This document shows, piece by piece, positions 24,265 to 29,150 of a DNA stretch of 64,000 nt; the stretch's first letter is position 1, and each line of letters starts with the position of its first letter. The notes under the pieces were generated by a model. It had not been told where the DNA came from and did not search any database. It worked only from the letters and a program-made list of their open reading frames with translations. Origin of the DNA: a virus; the IMG/VR virus record IMGVR_UViG_3300020048_000026, positions 32,001 to 96,000 of that record; one strand, given 5' to 3'. A program made the position numbers and the translations under genes.

Positions 24265-24930
24265 ATGGGTACAAGAGGTTCATCAGGGTTTATCTATAAA
24301 GATACACCTTATTTAAATTACAATCATTATGATTCCTATCCAGATGGTTTAGGTAGAGATGTTTTACATTTTATTGTAGATGTAAATAAAGAAAATGGTT
24401 GGGATAAATTCAAAGAAAATTCAAATGATATTATTCCAATAACAGAAAAAAGGATAACAGATCCTGATATAATTGAAAAATATAAGAAATATGCCGATTT
24501 AAGTGTTTCAACCAAAACATATGATGATCCATATTGCTTATTTAGAAAAATACAAGATTCTTGGATGCCTGAAATTTTAAAAGGCGAACTTAAACATTTT
24601 ACTTTTAATGATAATTTCATTAAAGAATCACTATTTTGCGAATATGCTTATGTTATTAATCTAGATACCATGAAATTGGAATTTTATGATGGATATCAAA
24701 AAGAAAGTCAACCTTCTAATAGATTTGGTGAAATACCTAATGAAGATGGTTATTATCCTTGCCGTTTAGTTGCTGTTTTTGATCTTCAAAAAATTCAAAA
24801 TAGTACTGACGTTGGACATATTGTAGAAAAAATGGATTTAATTTGTGATTTAAAAAAAGATGATCCGTCCATTTTACAATATTTCCGAAAACCAAAATTG
24901 GATAAAATAAATGAAAAAGCCTCTTTATAG
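24265..24930 (+). CDS. Conserved-looking phage hypothetical protein (ends in TAG)
   Basis: MGTRG...YNHYDSYPDGLG...CEYAYVINLD; RKPKLDKI tail. Confidence 0.7.
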   Translation: MGTRGSSGFIYKDTPYLNYNHYDSYPDGLGRDVLHFIVDVNKENGWDKFKENSNDIIPITEKRITDPDIIEKYKKYADLSVSTKTYDDPYCLFRKIQDSWMPEILKGELKHFTFNDNFIKESLFCEYAYVINLDTMKLEFYDGYQKESQPSNRFGEIPNEDGYYPCRLVAVFDLQKIQNSTDVGHIVEKMDLICDLKKDDPSILQYFRKPKLDKINEKASL

Positions 24931-24940
24931 AGGCTTTTTT
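24914..24940. terminator. Bidirectional intrinsic terminator
   Basis: aaaaagcctct-ttat-agaggctttttt between convergent CDS and tRNA genes. Confidence 0.8.
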
Positions 24941-24944
24941 CTTG

Positions 24945-25017
24945 CCCTAAGTGTAGGACTTGAACCTACGACCAACTATTTTAGAGATAGCTGCTCTACC
25001 AACTGAGCTAACAAAGG
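24945..25017 (-). tRNA. Amber suppressor tRNA (anticodon CUA) 1
   Basis: Cloverleaf; anticodon arm GCTAT-CTCTAAA-ATAGT; T-arm GTAGG-TTCAAGT-CCTAC; acceptor CCTTTGT/ACTTAGG with two U-U mismatches; G73. Confidence 0.85.
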
Positions 25018-25023
25018 ATTTTG

Positions 25024-25096
25024 AGATCCAGGTGGGGATCGAACCCACGACCAACTATTTTAGAGATAGCTTCTCTACCAACTGAGATACAAGATC
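25024..25096 (-). tRNA. Amber suppressor tRNA (anticodon CUA) 2
   Basis: Cloverleaf; identical anticodon arm; acceptor GATCTTG/CTGGATC with one U-U mismatch; U73. Confidence 0.88.
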
Positions 25097-25102
25097 AAGT
25101 AA

Positions 25103-25130
25103 GTTATTAGAGGATTCGTCCTCTAATAAC
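25103..25130. other. Perfect 12-bp hairpin in the suppressor-tRNA leader
   Basis: gttattagagga-ttcg-tcctctaataac. Confidence 0.75.
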
Positions 25131-25134
25131 AATA

Positions 25135-25142
25135 CAAAAGTA
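25135..25142 (-). promoter_or_regulatory. TAnnTTTG promoter box for suppressor tRNAs
   Basis: TACTTTTG on minus strand. Confidence 0.55.
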
Positions 25143-25166
25143 CTACTTTTCTTCCATAGAAAAAAA

Positions 25167-25583
25167 TTATTTATAAAAATTACCTTTTTCTAATTTATAT
25201 ATTTTTAAAAGCCTATCAGCCTCATTTCTCGCCTTAATCCATTCTTTTCTGGCGTTCTGGATTTTTTCTTCTTTAACAGATGGTTTAATACGAACCTTTT
25301 CTATTTCAAAAAGTCTTGATAACAATCCTAAAAAAGTGTTAATCTTCCTTAATGATGGCTTTTCACTTCTTTCAATCCAGTAACAATATTTCTGGATTTT
25401 TTTCATTTGATTTTGTGATAAATTTTTCCATTTAATCTCATAATATTTTTCAATATCACCTGATACTTGGTAATTATTTTCTTTGATAACTTTTTCAATT
25501 TTTTCAATTGCGTCTGCGATTTTGCTATCAATTTCACTTCTACTGTAGGTATACTCAATACCTGATGCTAATGTTGTTTCCAT
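25167..25583 (-). CDS. Hypothetical protein downstream of amber-containing leader
   Basis: 138-aa ORF. Confidence 0.7.
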   Translation of the reverse strand: METTLASGIEYTYSRSEIDSKIADAIEKIEKVIKENNYQVSGDIEKYYEIKWKNLSQNQMKKIQKYCYWIERSEKPSLRKINTFLGLLSRLFEIEKVRIKPSVKEEKIQNARKEWIKARNEADRLLKIYKLEKGNFYK

Positions 25584-25673
25584 AATGTTTTTTTGTTTTT
25601 TGTTTTTTTATAAAAAATTGTTTAATTGTAATTGAATTCTTGATTCGCGAATTGCGAATTTCTTATGGAAACT

Positions 25674-25697
25674 TTAAGGTGGTTTGTTCTACGTCAT
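25674..25697 (-). promoter_or_regulatory. Leader minigene ATG ACG TAG AAC AAA CCA CCT TAA (MT*NKPP*)
   Basis: Preceded by AAAGGAG; same ATGACGTAG start as the Pth-like gene. Confidence 0.6.
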
Positions 25698-25718
25698 AAC
25701 GTTCTCCTTTCTTTTTTT

Positions 25719-26099
25719 TTATATAATTTCTAATTTTTTTAATTTTGTTTTTCTCTCTTCTTTTTTTGATATATCAATCAAAAAATATTTTCCTTCTTTT
25801 TCATTATATTTTATTTGATAAATAAAAGGTCCCTCAGATATAACATCAAATTCAAAATAATTCTGTTTTGATTTTACAATATCATAACCAATTTTAGCAT
25901 TATTGTAAAAATTTAGAGTTTGAGTTCTATCTTCATTGTCATATTGACGATTAAGTAAACTAATTAAATTGTTCGCTAATCTCATATCACTAAATTCATC
26001 ATGAACTTTAGCATCCTTTATATCATCAAATAAACTCCAAAAAGAATCTGCTTTATATGATATTTTACCTTTTGATTCAATTTTAAATATCTTGCTCAT
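25719..26099 (-). CDS. Hypothetical protein with RKTKLKKL tail
   Basis: 126-aa ORF. Confidence 0.65.
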   Translation of the reverse strand: MSKIFKIESKGKISYKADSFWSLFDDIKDAKVHDEFSDMRLANNLISLLNRQYDNEDRTQTLNFYNNAKIGYDIVKSKQNYFEFDVISEGPFIYQIKYNEKEGKYFLIDISKKEERKTKLKKLEII

Positions 26100-26362
26100 A
26101 AATTATATTTTTTTGTTGCTTGATCTAATTCTACTCTTTCTTTAATTTTTTTCTGACTATACTCAATTGCAGTATCCATATACTCTGCTAAATGTTCACT
26201 ACAACAATTCGCTTCTAAATTTGATAACTGAGATCCACCAATAAAAACTAAGTATTTATCGTGATTTTGACAGTTTTCTTTACAACAATGTGAAGTATCT
26301 GAAAAACTTCCATGTATAACATGAACTTTGTAAAATTCGTAATATTCTTTATATGTAGCCAT
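26096..26362 (-). CDS. Cys-containing hypothetical protein (KKYNL family)
   Basis: 88-aa ORF. Confidence 0.65.
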   Translation of the reverse strand: MATYKEYYEFYKVHVIHGSFSDTSHCCKENCQNHDKYLVFIGGSQLSNLEANCCSEHLAEYMDTAIEYSQKKIKERVELDQATKKYNL

Positions 26363-26366
26363 AATT

Positions 26367-26627
26367 TTAGATGTTATAATTGTTTAATTCATTGAAAAAT
26401 TCGTAAACTTCTTTTAATTTTTTAACCATTTCATTTCTATCACTCTCGTCAAAATATCCCATATAAGTTCCTTCATACCAACCGCCTCCACCAGATATTG
26501 ATTCACTTTGATGCCCAGTATAAGAACATTCACTTAGAGATTCTAATTCATTAATGACCTCTAATAATAATTTATCTTCAAGCATAAACCACCTCCTCTC
26601 CTTTGAAAGTATTTTTATCAATTCCAT
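26367..26627 (-). CDS. Hypothetical protein (likely start MLEDK at 26585)
   Basis: ORF ends NNYNI. Confidence 0.55.
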   Translation of the reverse strand: MELIKILSKERRWFMLEDKLLLEVINELESLSECSYTGHQSESISGGGGWYEGTYMGYFDESDRNEMVKKLKEVYEFFNELNNYNI

Positions 26628-26967
26628 TAAATATATTGTATTCCTTTAACATTAAAGGTAAAGATGAGGTAAGCCTACGAGTTTTATCAGAAGGCTCAAT
26701 AGCAATCGCAGTAATCTGATTCCTAATATCAGGTTCACGAAAAACGACAAATTTTAAATGATTTTTTTCCAATTTTGAAATGAGAGAATATAATTCTTCT
26801 TCATTTTCTACAGAAAGCTGTGCTAAATAAGGGTCGTTGTACCAATAATTGGAAATTTGGTGATGTTCAACGAAAAACATAATCGCAGCATGGGTTGCTT
26901 GCGTTGCCTGATATCCAGGACTTAAATCTCTTCTTGTTACTGTTGTTAATTTGTTAACCTACGTCAT
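26578..26967 (-). CDS. Peptidyl-tRNA hydrolase (Pth2-like) with in-frame TAG at codon 3
   Basis: ATG ACG TAG then in-frame VNKLTTVTRRDLSPGYQATQATHAA joined to the 100-aa ORF containing FREPDIRNQITAIAIEP; both are Pth2-family motifs. Confidence 0.8.
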
Positions 26968-27017
26968 GATTTCTAAATTGTTTTTAATGTATATATTAAT
27001 TTTTGTGTTTTGTTTTA

Positions 27018-27025
27018 CAAATGTA
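27018..27025 (-). promoter_or_regulatory. TAnnTTTG promoter box
   Basis: TACATTTG upstream of the Pth-like gene. Confidence 0.55.
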
Positions 27026-27063
27026 TGGAACTTTTTTAATAAAAAAAATTTTAAAAAATTAAT

Positions 27064-27280
27064 TATCTCATAGCCGCGATCTTGTTTCTAATCTCACATT
27101 TATCTAAGTCTTTCAACTTCCTTTCCAACGAAAGGTGCTCCAACCCGACCTCACAGGGAAACCGACACCCTCAGTCTGTTTGGATTGCTACTTGTGTGGT
27201 GATAACGAATTTCTTCTCCCACAGTAGGTTTTGTAGTCGCGAACTTCCTCTAATATTTCTACCAGCGTAAGATCGAATAA
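27064..27280 (-). ncRNA. rnpB: Minimal RNase P RNA
   Basis: GAGGAAGTTCGCGAC (CR-I-like), AGATAAATG (CR-IV-like), ACAAGATCGCGGCTAT (CR-V-like); P4 pairing GTTCGCGA/TCGCGGC with bulged U; GC-rich intergenic island. Confidence 0.8.
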
Positions 27281-27287
27281 TTAATTT

Positions 27288-27701
27288 TTAAAATTCAGGT
27301 TCGTTATAAATAACTTTTGCTTTTGCATCTTTTTTTACACCATTTTTGAAATAATATCTACTTGGATCATCACCAAATCCATTATCCCAATCAATATCCA
27401 ATTGAAAAACTAAAGTTGGATATTTTTTTGAAAATTCTTTAATATCATCTTCAATTTTATAGCCACTACCTGGCTCATTTGAATTACCATCAGAATTTAG
27501 TAAATATGAACAATCATCACTTGTGTCTAAAAGTTCATCTATGATTGTGTTGCTTGATACAATCATATCAATTTCATCTGAAGGTGAACCACATTTTGAA
27601 CAAAATTGACCATTGATTTGTGTTTTACAATTTGGACAAAATGGTACTTTATTTGTAATTTCACCAATAATTTTTAATTTAAAGTAATTTTCGTAACTCA
27701 T
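27288..27701 (-). CDS. Zinc-ribbon hypothetical protein
   Basis: CPNC...CSKCG. Confidence 0.65.
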   Translation of the reverse strand: MSYENYFKLKIIGEITNKVPFCPNCKTQINGQFCSKCGSPSDEIDMIVSSNTIIDELLDTSDDCSYLLNSDGNSNEPGSGYKIEDDIKEFSKKYPTLVFQLDIDWDNGFGDDPSRYYFKNGVKKDAKAKVIYNEPEF

Positions 27702-28350: not shown

Positions 28351-28611
28351 CTATTTCAAATTTTTTTGTGTAATAGGTTCATTACATTTAGGACATTTTA
28401 TATATCCCATACCCGATTCAGTTACAGACAAATAATCAAATGTATGCTTACACTTTGGACAAATAACAAGATTTCCTATCCTATCAAGAACTTTTTGTTT
28501 TTCATCATCTGTCATTCTCTTCCATTTAGCAATTTCTTTTCCAGTTCGTTTACAACCTTTACAAACTCCATCTACTAAACCACATTTATCTACACAAGGA
28601 CTCTTTATCAT
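28351..28611 (-). CDS. DUF1289-like Cys-rich protein fused to zinc ribbon
   Basis: SPCVDKC...CKGCKRTGKEIAKW plus CPKC...CPKC. Confidence 0.7.
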   Translation of the reverse strand: MIKSPCVDKCGLVDGVCKGCKRTGKEIAKWKRMTDDEKQKVLDRIGNLVICPKCKHTFDYLSVTESGMGYIKCPKCNEPITQKNLK

Positions 28612-29150
28612 AACGATTTATTATTAATTTTTAAATATTTCAAAGGTACACTATCAGTTAACCAAACACCATTTTCACTCAAGTAAAATTTATAACCATC
28701 AGTATTCATTGCAGCTGAGTCAACTTCCAATATAATTGGAGCATTTCTTTTAGAATACCTTTTTCCTACACTATATGCAACTTCAATATCATCAGTTAAA
28801 TGTACATGAAGCCTTCTCATTTTTTCTAAACCCTTACCCCTAATAATCTTTTCATAACTATCAGGACTTGTACCATGATAAAGTACCCTTGGAGGTCTAA
28901 TCGCCTTTAATCCAACATCAACCTTAACCGAATGACCCTGAGATGCGCGAATTTTAGACTTATCCTGATTATAAGCCAATCTTTTCTTATCATTCGTATC
29001 TACAATATGATTCAATTCTTCCTGTGTTATACCAACCTTATTTAAAAGTGATTTAACATCAACATACCCACTAGTATCCATTATTAAATCCTCTGAATTG
29101 TGCCTTAATAGATAAGTTATCTTCTTTCCTATTTGTATATAATCTTTCAT
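28608..29150 (-). CDS. kptA: RNA 2'-phosphotransferase (Tpt1/KptA)
   Basis: LLRH, DKKR, IRASQGHS, LYHGT, RLHVHL, NGVWL motifs. Confidence 0.95.
   Translation of the reverse strand: MKDYIQIGKKITYLLRHNSEDLIMDTSGYVDVKSLLNKVGITQEELNHIVDTNDKKRLAYNQDKSKIRASQGHSVKVDVGLKAIRPPRVLYHGTSPDSYEKIIRGKGLEKMRRLHVHLTDDIEVAYSVGKRYSKRNAPIILEVDSAAMNTDGYKFYLSENGVWLTDSVPLKYLKINNKSL

What the first reader, a model, noticed from the sequence alone, without database searches (positions are those of the whole stretch)
25583..25710. Second ATG-ACG-TAG leader (MT*NKPP*) ahead of an unknown gene
Seen: AAAGGAG followed by ATG ACG TAG AAC AAA CCA CCT TAA, then a hairpin ATTCGC-AATTC-GCGAAT (about 25643-25659), then the 138-aa gene 25583-25167 and the suppressor tRNAs. 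The same 9-mer start occurring twice within 1.3 kb argues that the Pth TAG is deliberate. Read-through would carry the ribosome to Pro-Pro-stop, a known slow-termination context, next to the hairpin. Inference: a read-through sensor controlling the downstream gene, which may be a termination or ribosome-rescue factor.
Basis: partly seen in the sequence, partly recalled or inferred. Interest (0 to 1): 0.72.

Follow-up and report, generated by a model that had tools for sequence, protein, structure and literature searches.

The report
Amber-gated ribosome-stalling leader in phage
A seven-codon mini-gene in a 155-kb phage has a stop codon at position 3 that probably only the phage's own stop-reading tRNAs can pass; ribosomes that pass it should stall on Pro-Pro-stop on top of an RNA helix hiding the next gene's start, so that gene is probably made only when read-through works, a natural switch I did not find published.

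Summary
A strong Shine-Dalgarno site (GAAAGGAG, the only copy in the 154,853-bp genome) precedes ATG ACG TAG AAC AAA CCA CCT TAA (25697-25674, minus strand). ATGACGTAG occurs twice in the genome; the other copy starts the Pth2-like gene.

It is not chance. About 45 distinct related phage loci keep the same design ahead of homologues of the 138-aa gene: ATG, 1-4 sense codons, a stop, then 4-8 codons ending K/R-(A/G)-P-P/T/D-stop. Pro codons vary synonymously, so the part after the stop is read as protein. The internal stop matches the neighbouring suppressor tRNA: TAG with CUA in all such loci, TAA with UUA in L021. All 24 intact Pth2 homologues carry the same early stop.

The key structure is not the small hairpin. 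It is a 10-bp helix between 25672-25663, just after the leader stop, and 25585-25576, which includes the AUG of the 138-aa gene. This pairing recurs in 28 of 33 loci.

The best reading is a translational switch that senses read-through and uses ribosome arrest. The function of the 138-aa protein stays unknown. Nothing here is experimentally shown.

Other agents in this scan reported the same class in other phage genomes. I found no published description.

The parts
25704..25711 (-). Shine-Dalgarno site GAAAGGAG of the leader, 6 nt before its ATG
   Evidence: Read. This 8-mer occurs once in the 154,853-bp genome, and only 7 of 198 ORFs have any SD core. It is conserved as GAAAGGAG(G) in the close relatives.
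25674..25697 (-). Leader mini-ORF ATG ACG TAG AAC AAA CCA CCT TAA (M T stop N K P P stop)
   Evidence: The same architecture is found in 31 distinct leader sequences and in 14 of 16 further loci.
25689..25691 (-). Gate codon TAG (codon 3 of the leader), read only by a CUA tRNA
   Evidence: The internal stop is TAG in 29 distinct leaders and TAA in 2. L021 has TAA in both leader and Pth2 and carries a UUA tRNA.
25674..25682 (-). Arrest site: CCA CCT TAA (Pro-Pro-stop)
   Evidence: Among the 31 distinct leaders, Pro codons vary synonymously: CCA 27, CCG 13, CCT 11, CCC 2. Of these leaders, 22 end in PP and the other 9 have P in the last two residues. A C-terminal Pro-Pro impairs termination in E. 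coli (PMC3834316).
25663..25672 (-). 5' strand of the anti-start helix, GUUUCCAUAA, beginning 2 nt after the leader stop
   Evidence: It lies +8 to +17 from the first base of the last sense codon, and +23 to +32 from the codon before the TAG.
25643..25659 (-).
   Evidence: Relatives have unrelated inner hairpins at the same place.
25576..25585 (-). 3' strand of the anti-start helix, UUAUGGAAAC, containing the AUG (25583-25581) of the 138-aa gene
   Evidence: The duplex scores -12.8 kcal/mol, and 0 of 832 control windows do as well.
25167..25583 (-). Regulated gene: 138-aa protein of unknown function, with a four-helix bundle, a long C-terminal helix and the conserved C-terminus YKxEKGxFYK
   Evidence: The family has 319 clusters at E <= 0.001 and was found only in phage or metagenome DNA.
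25023..25096 (-). Amber suppressor tRNA 1 (anticodon CUA; G1-C72, U73)
24944..25017 (-). Amber suppressor tRNA 2 (anticodon CUA; C1-G72, G73)
24914..24939 (-). Intrinsic-terminator-like hairpin that ends the gene run
   Evidence: It is the only such site between 24850 and 27350.
26578..26967 (-). Pth2-like gene gated by the same ATG ACG TAG (TAG at 26961-26959)
   Evidence: PF01981 scores 31.8 bits against a cut-off of 23, and the match starts at residue 6. No start codon lies between the TAG and the conserved K-L-x-x-V-T-R block. 24 of 24 homologues have an early stop.

Best explanation
The leader is a translational switch that reports whether UAG is being read through.

**OFF state.** Ribosomes load on the strong SD and start at AUG. 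If release factor wins at UAG (codon 3), a dipeptide is released. The ribosome never comes within about 22 nt of the helix GUUUCCAUAA/UUAUGGAAAC, which keeps the AUG of the 138-aa gene paired.

**ON state.** If one of the phage's CUA tRNAs decodes UAG, the ribosome goes on through Asn-Lys-Pro-Pro and pauses with the last Pro codon in the P site and UAA in the A site. This is slow Pro-Pro peptide-bond formation followed by slow release after C-terminal Pro-Pro. In that position its mRNA channel covers the 5' strand of the helix. The AUG and the A-rich stretch before it become free, and the 138-aa gene is translated.

**Shared gate.** The Pth2-like gene upstream uses the same early-stop gate directly in its coding sequence. 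Both proteins are therefore made in proportion to suppressor activity.

**What is shown by sequence and comparison:** the leader, its conservation, peptide-level selection after the stop, the match between stop and anticodon, and the conserved helix with its geometry.

**What is inferred:** that translation, read-through and pausing actually occur, and that pausing turns the gene on.
For: 1. **Conserved leader.** It is found ahead of homologues that share only 30-75% protein identity. There are 31 distinct leader sequences, plus 14 of 16 loci in a second, independently retrieved set.
2. **Peptide-level selection after the stop.** All four Pro codons are used. All 31 leaders have K or R one to three residues before the first Pro, and P in the last two positions.
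3. **Stop matches anticodon.** TAG goes with CUA in every locus that holds both. L021 has TAA in the leader, TAA in Pth2 and a UUA tRNA. The terminal stop differs from the gate stop in 29 of 31 leaders (the exceptions are L016 and L043).
4. **Start-masking duplex.** The pairing between the leader end and the start codon ranks in the best 5% of same-locus control windows in 28 of 33 loci, and in the best 1% in 24 of 33.
5. **Compensatory changes.** L046 pairs AUGGAC with GGUCCA. L044 pairs AAAUGGAA with UUCCAUUU. Positions -5 to -1 and +5 to +7 show several pair types.
6. **Only conserved structure.** RNAalifold on 19 spacers returns this helix and nothing else. Both MFE and centroid folds of the window keep it.
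7. **Geometry.** The 5' strand lies within about +8 to +20 of the last sense codon. It lies at least +16, mostly +22 to +40, from the codon before the gate stop.
8. **Literature.** C-terminal Pro-Pro arrests termination in all contexts tested (PMC3834316). RxPP cores (x = G, A, S, P) arrest elongation and resist EF-P (PMC12992588). Distant relatives carry exactly such cores: RAPP, RGPT, RAPT, RAPD.
9. **No terminator.** No terminator-like site lies between the leader and the gene.
Against: - There is no experimental evidence of any kind, and no RNA data set holds this phage.
- The window's motif is N-K-P-P. Arg is irreplaceable in studied RAPP peptides (PMC12992588), so arrest here must rest on Pro-Pro-stop alone, which EF-P may relieve.
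- The nascent chain is only 7 residues. Such short peptidyl-tRNAs may drop off instead of holding the ribosome.
- The host is unknown. The genome hardly uses SD sites (7 of 198 ORFs), so how the leader's strong SD behaves is uncertain.
- Five of 33 loci lack the simple duplex, including the closest named relative, LR756501 (L001).
- The phage has no other in-frame TAG, so what the suppressors are for, and why their activity needs sensing, is unexplained.
- The helix is AU-rich (-12.8 kcal/mol). The fold z-score of the whole region is modest at -2.2.
Confidence: 0.75

Rival explanations
1. Transcriptional control. Leader translation governs an attenuator or Rho-dependent polarity. The real target would be transcription into the 138-aa gene and the suppressor tRNA genes, giving tRNA autoregulation.
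For: In the window and its close relatives the CUA tRNAs lie directly downstream of the 138-aa gene. An untranslated 138-aa gene could expose Rho entry sites. A neighbouring tRNA block in this genome was read by other agents as attenuator-controlled.
Against: No terminator-like hairpin with a U run lies between the leader and the gene. The one conserved structure pairs the start codon itself. In distant relatives the suppressor tRNA lies upstream of Pth2 and the leader, so it cannot be the regulated target there. A conserved TAnnTTTG box plus hairpin before the tRNAs suggests they have their own promoter. That is weak evidence, because the motif is not enriched in the window.
Confidence: 0.08
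2. A bar-type minigene. The SD-ATG-ACG-TAG unit would be a two-codon ORF whose job is to generate fMet-Thr-tRNA drop-off. That would sequester a rare tRNA or create substrate for the phage Pth2. The downstream codons would be irrelevant.
For: The unit has a strong SD, a two-codon ORF, a rare ACG codon in a 26.6% GC genome, and a peptidyl-tRNA hydrolase gene 1.3 kb upstream that starts with the same 9-mer.
Against: The number of sense codons before the stop varies from 1 to 4, and codon 2 varies freely (T, S, F, I, L, K). The codons after the stop are under peptide-level selection and always end in a Pro-containing arrest-like motif. The gate stop tracks the suppressor anticodon. Distant relatives have no SD.
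Confidence: 0.05
3. No suppression is involved. Ribosomes would terminate at TAG and re-initiate at the next codon (often ATT, ATA or GTA), or the stop would be bypassed by another recoding event. The suppressor tRNAs would be unrelated neighbours.
For: The codon after the gate stop is ATT, ATA, ATC, GTA or ATG in 26 of 31 leaders. ATT is a known rare start codon.
Against: The window itself has AAC after the stop, and others have AGT, ACA or GAA. TAA gates co-occur with a UUA tRNA, and TAG gates with CUA tRNAs, with no mismatch in any locus holding both. An A after UAG is also the classical favourable context for amber suppression (my own knowledge of the E. coli context-effect literature; not checked here).
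Confidence: 0.04
4. The seven-residue peptide M-T-X-N-K-P-P is itself the functional product, for example a ribosome- or factor-binding micropeptide. The helix would be incidental.
For: There is peptide-level conservation of the C-terminal K/R-P-P.
Against: Length and sequence vary widely, from MT*NKPP to MKDT*IKIRHPP and MKK*NHKIRGPT. The position relative to the start-masking helix is what is conserved. The conserved residues coincide with known arrest cores.
Confidence: 0.03

Closest known systems
RAPP/RGPP-type regulatory arrest peptides (ApdA, ApdP, ApcA; SecM with RAGP) - PMC12992588, PMC10951233, PMC7897499
   Same: Both are short upstream ORFs whose C-terminal Arg/Lys-x-Pro-Pro-type core stalls the ribosome so that a structure masking the downstream gene's initiation region opens. 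Distant relatives of this leader carry literal RAPP, or RGP-T, RAP-T and RAP-D cores.
   Different: Here the input is decoding of an early in-frame stop by a suppressor tRNA, not secretion or membrane insertion. The peptides are 7-12 residues with no signal or membrane segment. The window's own core is N-K-P-P followed directly by a stop, with Lys where Arg is reported as irreplaceable. The stall is therefore probably at termination, not at Pro-Pro bond formation alone.
C-terminal Pro-Pro termination stall (E. coli YbeL-PP model) - PMC3834316
   Same: Pro-Pro lies immediately before the stop codon, with the last Pro codon in the P site and the stop in the A site.
   Different: YbeL-PP is an engineered model of a quality-control problem (A-site cleavage, tmRNA tagging). 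Here the motif is conserved and placed 2 nt before a regulatory helix.
Translational attenuation leaders of resistance genes (ermCL, cat leaders)
   Same: A ribosome paused at a defined codon of a short leader melts a helix that occludes the initiation region of the next gene, with no change in transcription (my own knowledge of this literature).
   Different: Their pausing needs an antibiotic bound in the exit tunnel. Here access to the pause site is gated by read-through of a stop codon.
Engineered amber-codon leader switches (TAG placed in trp/tna-type leaders so that a suppressor tRNA charged with an unnatural amino acid controls downstream genes) - reviewed in PMC6412442, section 6
   Same: The logic is the same: the downstream gene is expressed only if the leader is translated beyond an inserted UAG.
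   Different: Those switches are synthetic and act through Rho-dependent transcription termination. This one is natural and phage-borne, probably acts on translation, and is paired with its own tRNAs.
prfB (RF2) autoregulatory recoding site
   Same: An early in-frame stop codon acts as a sensor of termination efficiency and sets the output of the gene (my own knowledge).
   Different: prfB senses RF2 through a +1 frameshift on CUU UGA with an internal SD. Here the frame is kept, and the competitor of the release factor is a dedicated suppressor tRNA.

Membership tests
RAPP/RxPP arrest peptides | An Arg-x-Pro-Pro core (x = A, G, S or P) with Arg irreplaceable (PMC12992588) | tested here: not met
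   The window leader ends N-K-P-P-stop, with Lys instead of Arg and no x residue. Relatives do carry RAPP, RNPP, RHPP, RGP-T and RAP-T/D. The family of leaders overlaps this class, but the window's member does not meet the rule.
RAPP/RxPP arrest peptides | [quoted passage not shown] | not testable with these tools
   This needs toeprinting or cryo-EM. The helix geometry in the window (+8 to +17 from the last sense codon) fits a stall at the stop codon better.
RAPP/RxPP arrest peptides | Monitoring-substrate architecture: an N-terminal signal or membrane segment, upstream of a Sec/YidC-type gene | tested here: not met
   The peptide has 7 residues. The downstream gene is an unassigned soluble helical protein.
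Translational attenuation by leader-ribosome pausing (erm/cat/SecM logic) | A short translated leader directly upstream of the regulated gene on the same strand | tested here: met
   The leader lies at 25697-25674 and the gene starts at 25583, leaving a 90-nt spacer.
Translational attenuation by leader-ribosome pausing (erm/cat/SecM logic) | A helix that occludes the initiation region and has one strand within the footprint of the paused ribosome | tested here: met
The helix is 25672-25663 with 25585-25576. It ranks in the best 5% of controls in 28 of 33 loci.
Translational attenuation by leader-ribosome pausing (erm/cat/SecM logic) | A demonstrated pause and induction | not testable with these tools
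   No RNA or ribosome data exist for this phage.
Leader-peptide transcription attenuators (trp/his type) | Alternative terminator and antiterminator hairpins with a U run between leader and gene | tested here: not met
   No terminator-like site lies between 25674 and 25583. The only one in 24850-27350 is after the tRNAs.
Lambda bar-type minigenes | A two-codon ORF plus stop behind an SD, with function independent of downstream codons | tested here: not met
   SD-ATG-ACG-TAG is present. However, the number of codons before the stop varies from 1 to 4, and the codons after the stop are conserved as peptide.
Pth2 (PF01981), for the gene sharing the 9-mer | A profile match above the Pfam gathering score | tested here: met
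   31.8 bits against a cut-off of 23, covering residues 6-104. No direct phmmer match to a solved structure was found. Catalytic residues were not examined.

The most novel reading that the evidence does not exclude
The cassette (suppressor tRNAs, stop-gated Pth2, gated leader and the 138-aa protein) would be an autonomous switch of genetic-code state in a phage that itself uses the standard code. The 138-aa protein, made only once read-through is detected, would act on termination or on the ribosome, for example against RF1. That would lock the infected cell into a UAG read-through state by positive feedback, while Pth2 clears the resulting peptidyl-tRNA load. This would give suppressor tRNAs of standard-code phages a purpose (host sabotage or counter-defence), and it would be a natural sensor-effector loop for stop-codon meaning.
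Probability: 0.15. Interest if true: 0.92.

Novelty: new variant of a known kind. Interest (0 to 1): 0.82.

Why it matters
If the model holds, this is a natural device that measures whether a stop codon is being read as sense and converts the answer into gene expression. To my knowledge that has so far only been built by synthetic biologists.

- **Suppressor tRNAs in standard-code phages.** It links phage suppressor tRNAs to a defined regulated output, a peptidyl-tRNA hydrolase-like enzyme and a large unstudied protein family of 319 clusters. That makes it directly testable why phages that do not recode their own genes carry such tRNAs.
- **Minimal arrest peptides.** Ribosome-arrest logic would work with nascent chains of only 7-12 residues. 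This would be a minimal natural system for studying Pro-Pro and RxP arrest.
- **Practical use.** It would be a compact part for reporting suppressor or orthogonal-tRNA activity.

Tried and rejected
- **General TAG recoding of this phage: rejected.** Of about 200 ORFs, about 10 end in TAG. The only convincing in-frame TAG is in Pth2; the other N-terminal TAGs lie upstream of obvious ATG starts.
- **Identical 9-mer as a requirement: rejected.** Relatives often differ at codon 2 between Pth2 and the leader.
- **Terminator/antiterminator: rejected**.
- **Rfam at gathering score:** only tRNAs were found in the window.
- **Function of the 138-aa protein: nothing found.**
  - No Pfam or PHROG family.
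  - Foldseek against PDB: best E 0.64.
  - VIA-align wide: Z at most 5.9, generic four-helix bundles.
  - ESM Atlas: no usable hit.
  - No longer or fused forms.
  - No relative in 185,579 prokaryote genomes.
- **Pth2-like protein against PDB sequences:** no phmmer hit.
- **TAnnTTTG promoter box:** 130 found against 124 expected, so not enriched. The two well-placed sites are only a weak hint.
- **Amino-acid identity of the two CUA tRNAs:** comparison with the phage's own tRNAs was uninformative.
- **Expression data:** no RNA holder was listed among sequencing runs.
- **The look-up of encoding contigs was closed.** I tested distant family members through a profile scan of viral contigs instead.
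- **Literature:** four of my five searches looked for a natural equivalent or for arrest-peptide papers. They returned only synthetic amber-leader switches and RAPP-type arrest peptides. This is not an exhaustive search.

Full report
**What is there**

The window is part of a single-contig genome of 154,853 bp with 26.6% GC. Its large terminase is closest to uncultured huge phages LR756501-4 and LR745206, and more distantly to Tenacibaculum, Flavobacterium and Sphingomonas phages.

On the minus strand, a run of genes carries the following:
- a Tpt1/KptA-type RNA 2'-phosphotransferase at 29150-28608;
- a GC-richer untranslated stretch at about 27290-27060;
- a Pth2-like gene at 26967-26578;
- three small ORFs;
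- the mini-ORF of this finding;
- a 138-aa ORF at 25583-25167;
- two tRNAs with anticodon CUA at 25096-24944;
- the only terminator-like hairpin of the region, at 24939-24914.

The small hairpin ATTCGC/GCGAAT sits at 25659-25643.

**Is it more than chance?**

ATGACGTAG occurs twice in the window, against 0.10 expected. It occurs nowhere else in the genome. The other copy is the first nine bases of the Pth2-like gene.

In that gene the Pfam match begins at residue 6, and no ATG, GTG or TTG lies between the TAG and the conserved K-L-x-x-V-T-R block. An intact enzyme therefore needs the TAG to be decoded.

The phage is not generally recoded. About 10 of about 200 ORFs end in TAG. Every other apparent in-frame TAG lies upstream of an obvious start codon or is a plain gene end.

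The leader's GAAAGGAG is the only copy of that 8-mer in the genome. Only 7 of 198 ORFs have any Shine-Dalgarno core.

**Comparative evidence**

The syntenic locus of LR756501 has Pth2 starting ATG TCG TAG. Behind the same SD, its mini-ORF reads ATG TCG TAG AGT AGG CCG CCT TAA. A 138-aa homologue and two CUA tRNAs follow.

Searching viral and metagenome contigs with the 138-aa protein gave about 50 loci. Nearly every locus with enough upstream DNA has a leader of the same design. The design is ATG, one to four sense codons, a stop, then four to eight codons ending in K/R-(A/G/N/H/S)-P-P/T/D, then a second stop.

Among the 31 distinct leader sequences:
- The internal stop is TAG in 29 and TAA in 2.
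- The terminal stop is TAA in 25, TGA in 4 and TAG in 2.
- Pro codons are CCA 27, CCG 13, CCT 11 and CCC 2. The part after the internal stop is therefore conserved as peptide, not as nucleotides.
- 22 end in Pro-Pro, and the other 9 have Pro in one of the last two positions.
- All have Lys or Arg one to three residues before the first Pro.

A second set of 16 loci was retrieved with a profile of distant family members. The leader is present in 14 of them, and a CUA tRNA lies within 2.5 kb in 13.

**The gate stop matches the tRNA**

Every locus that holds both a TAG-gated leader and a suppressor tRNA has anticodon CUA.

L021 is the informative exception. Its leader is ATG ACG TAA GTA AAT AAA CCA CCG TAG, its Pth2 starts ATG ACG TAA, and its tRNA has anticodon UUA. 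L043 also has TAA in both frames, but its contig is too short to hold the tRNA.

All 24 Pth2 homologues with an intact 5' end carry an in-frame stop one to nine codons after the ATG. Within a genome, the residues before the stop tend to be alike in Pth2 and the leader: MKDT/MKDT, MKNT/MKNT, MKH/MKH, MT/MT, MS/MS.

The window's repeated 9-mer is thus one case of a family-wide shared gate. The identity itself is not required. L008 has ACG in Pth2 and ATA in the leader.

**The RNA structure that matters**

In minimum-energy folds of the stretch from leader to start codon, the AUG region of the 138-aa gene pairs with the 10-13 bases right after, or overlapping, the leader's terminal stop. This holds in most loci.

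In the window, GUUUCCAUAA (25672-25663) pairs with UUAUGGAAAC (25585-25576). The fold z-score is -2.2.

I compared this duplex with all other 28-nt windows of the same locus:
- It is in the best 5% in 28 of 33 distinct loci.
- It is in the best 1% in 24 of 33.
- The window scores -12.8 kcal/mol, and none of 832 controls does as well.

The partner sequences change together. AUGGAC pairs with GGUCCA in L046. AAAUGGAA pairs with UUCCAUUU in L044. CAAUUAUGG pairs with CCAUAAUUG, overlapping Pro-stop, in L051 and L052. G-U intermediates occur elsewhere.

RNAalifold on 19 spacers predicts this helix and nothing else. No terminator-like site lies in the spacer.

**Geometry**

The 5' strand of the helix lies at +8 to +20 from the first base of the last sense codon. 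It lies at least +16, and mostly +22 to +40, from the codon that occupies the P site when the gate stop is in the A site.

A ribosome shields roughly 15 nt downstream of the P-site codon; this is established toeprinting knowledge. A ribosome terminating at the gate therefore leaves the helix intact, while one held at the end of the leader sits on it.

In the window the helix starts 2 nt after UAA. That fits a pause with the last Pro codon in the P site and the stop in the A site.

**Why a pause is expected**

A C-terminal Pro-Pro interferes with termination and arrests ribosomes in all contexts tested in E. coli (PMC3834316).

[quoted passage not shown] Distant relatives of this leader carry RAPP, RGP-T, RAP-T/D, RNPP and RHPP.

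The window's own N-K-P-P does not meet the Arg rule of that class. I therefore file it as working like an arrest leader without being a member of the RAPP family.

**Most likely mechanism (confidence about 0.75)**

The leader reports the balance between suppressor tRNA and release factor at UAG. Read-through leads to a pause at Pro-Pro-UAA. The pause melts the start-masking helix, and the 138-aa gene is translated. Pth2 is gated directly by the same early stop.

The anatomy, the conservation, the stop-to-anticodon match and the helix are shown by sequence. Translation, pausing and the ON direction are inferred.

The rivals score far lower. They are transcriptional attenuation or Rho polarity, a bar-type minigene, re-initiation without suppression, and a functional micropeptide. 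Each is set out with its evidence in its own section.

**What stays open**

- The 138-aa protein is a confident helical model: pLDDT 85, with a four-helix bundle and a long C-terminal helix. It has no family, no informative fold match, no fused forms and no cellular homologues.
- Its family is large, with 319 clusters at 50% identity.
- Because the phage has no other in-frame TAG, the purpose of the suppressors is unknown. Action on host or competitor messages is a guess.
- The host is not identified. Scarce SD use and the terminase relatives hint at Bacteroidota.

**Novelty**

Five literature searches were run; four of them looked for a natural equivalent or for arrest-peptide work. They turned up engineered amber-codon leader switches (PMC6412442) and RAPP-type arrest peptides, but no natural suppressor-sensing leader.

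Other agents of this scan reported the same class in other phage genomes; a word search returned 56 notes from at least 46 genomes, and the eight shown all describe it. I saw those notes only after reaching the same reading. They agree with it, but they are not independent evidence.

I rate this a new variant of a known kind. The output device is known (an arrest leader plus a start-masking helix), and the input is new (stop-codon read-through by a dedicated tRNA).

Noticed in passing
window 27056-27290 (minus strand): A GC-richer stretch of about 230 nt with no ORF lies directly upstream of the Pth2-like gene. It has no Rfam match at gathering score. Another agent of this scan reads it as a miniature RNase P RNA. 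I did not test that.
   Followed up: no
window 25104-25142 (minus strand): A perfect hairpin (TTATTAGAGGA, loop cgaa, TCCTCTAATAA; 25129-25104) lies just before the first CUA tRNA. It is preceded by TACTTTTG (25142-25135), which fits the Bacteroidota -7 box TAnnTTTG. L021 and L001 show the same box-plus-hairpin layout before their tRNAs. The box is not enriched in the window overall.
   Followed up: partly
window 24944-25096: The two CUA tRNAs share an identical anticodon arm and D loop. They differ in acceptor end (G1-C72 with U73 against C1-G72 with G73), and both carry U-U mismatches in the acceptor stem. They may be charged with different amino acids.
   Followed up: partly
L001 3051-3434 (LR756501): The Pth2 homologue of the 735-kb phage has a second in-frame TAG. 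It falls at the position where the window and other homologues have Leu (SSLP-L-ML). This is a single hint about the inserted residue.
   Followed up: no
window 25691-25702 (minus strand); L001 4890-4901: A four-base-pair hairpin brackets the leader AUG: ACGU-UAUG-ACGU in the window and ACGA-UAUG-UCGU in L001 and L010. Codon 2 (ACG or TCG) therefore covaries with the spacer between SD and AUG. Other relatives do not have it.
   Followed up: partly
whole genome G000: Only about 3.5% of ORFs (7 of 198) have a Shine-Dalgarno core. Yet the leader, and an internal start of the 86-aa ORF near 26586 (aaaggagaggaggtggttt ATG), have very strong ones.
   Followed up: partly
L023 1540-1800: In this relative the leader is missing. 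The DNA upstream of the 138-aa homologue instead ends an ORF whose C-terminus looks like a TnpB/IS200-605 OrfB (…NGIKINADLNGALNILRK). The gene starts with GTG. This may be an insertion that removed the leader.
   Followed up: no
L016 (IMGVR_UViG_3300014205_000001) 1928-2480: In this 391-kb phage a tRNA-Arg(CCU) sits between the stop-gated Pth2 and the leader. The leader ends Ser-Pro-TAG-TAA (MKNMQ*INSNRSP**). No suppressor tRNA lies within the 5.4 kb fetched.
   Followed up: no
window 28608-29150 (minus strand): A Tpt1/KptA RNA 2'-phosphotransferase (PF01885, E 1.5e-42) lies in the same gene run as Pth2, the leader and the suppressor tRNAs.
   Followed up: no
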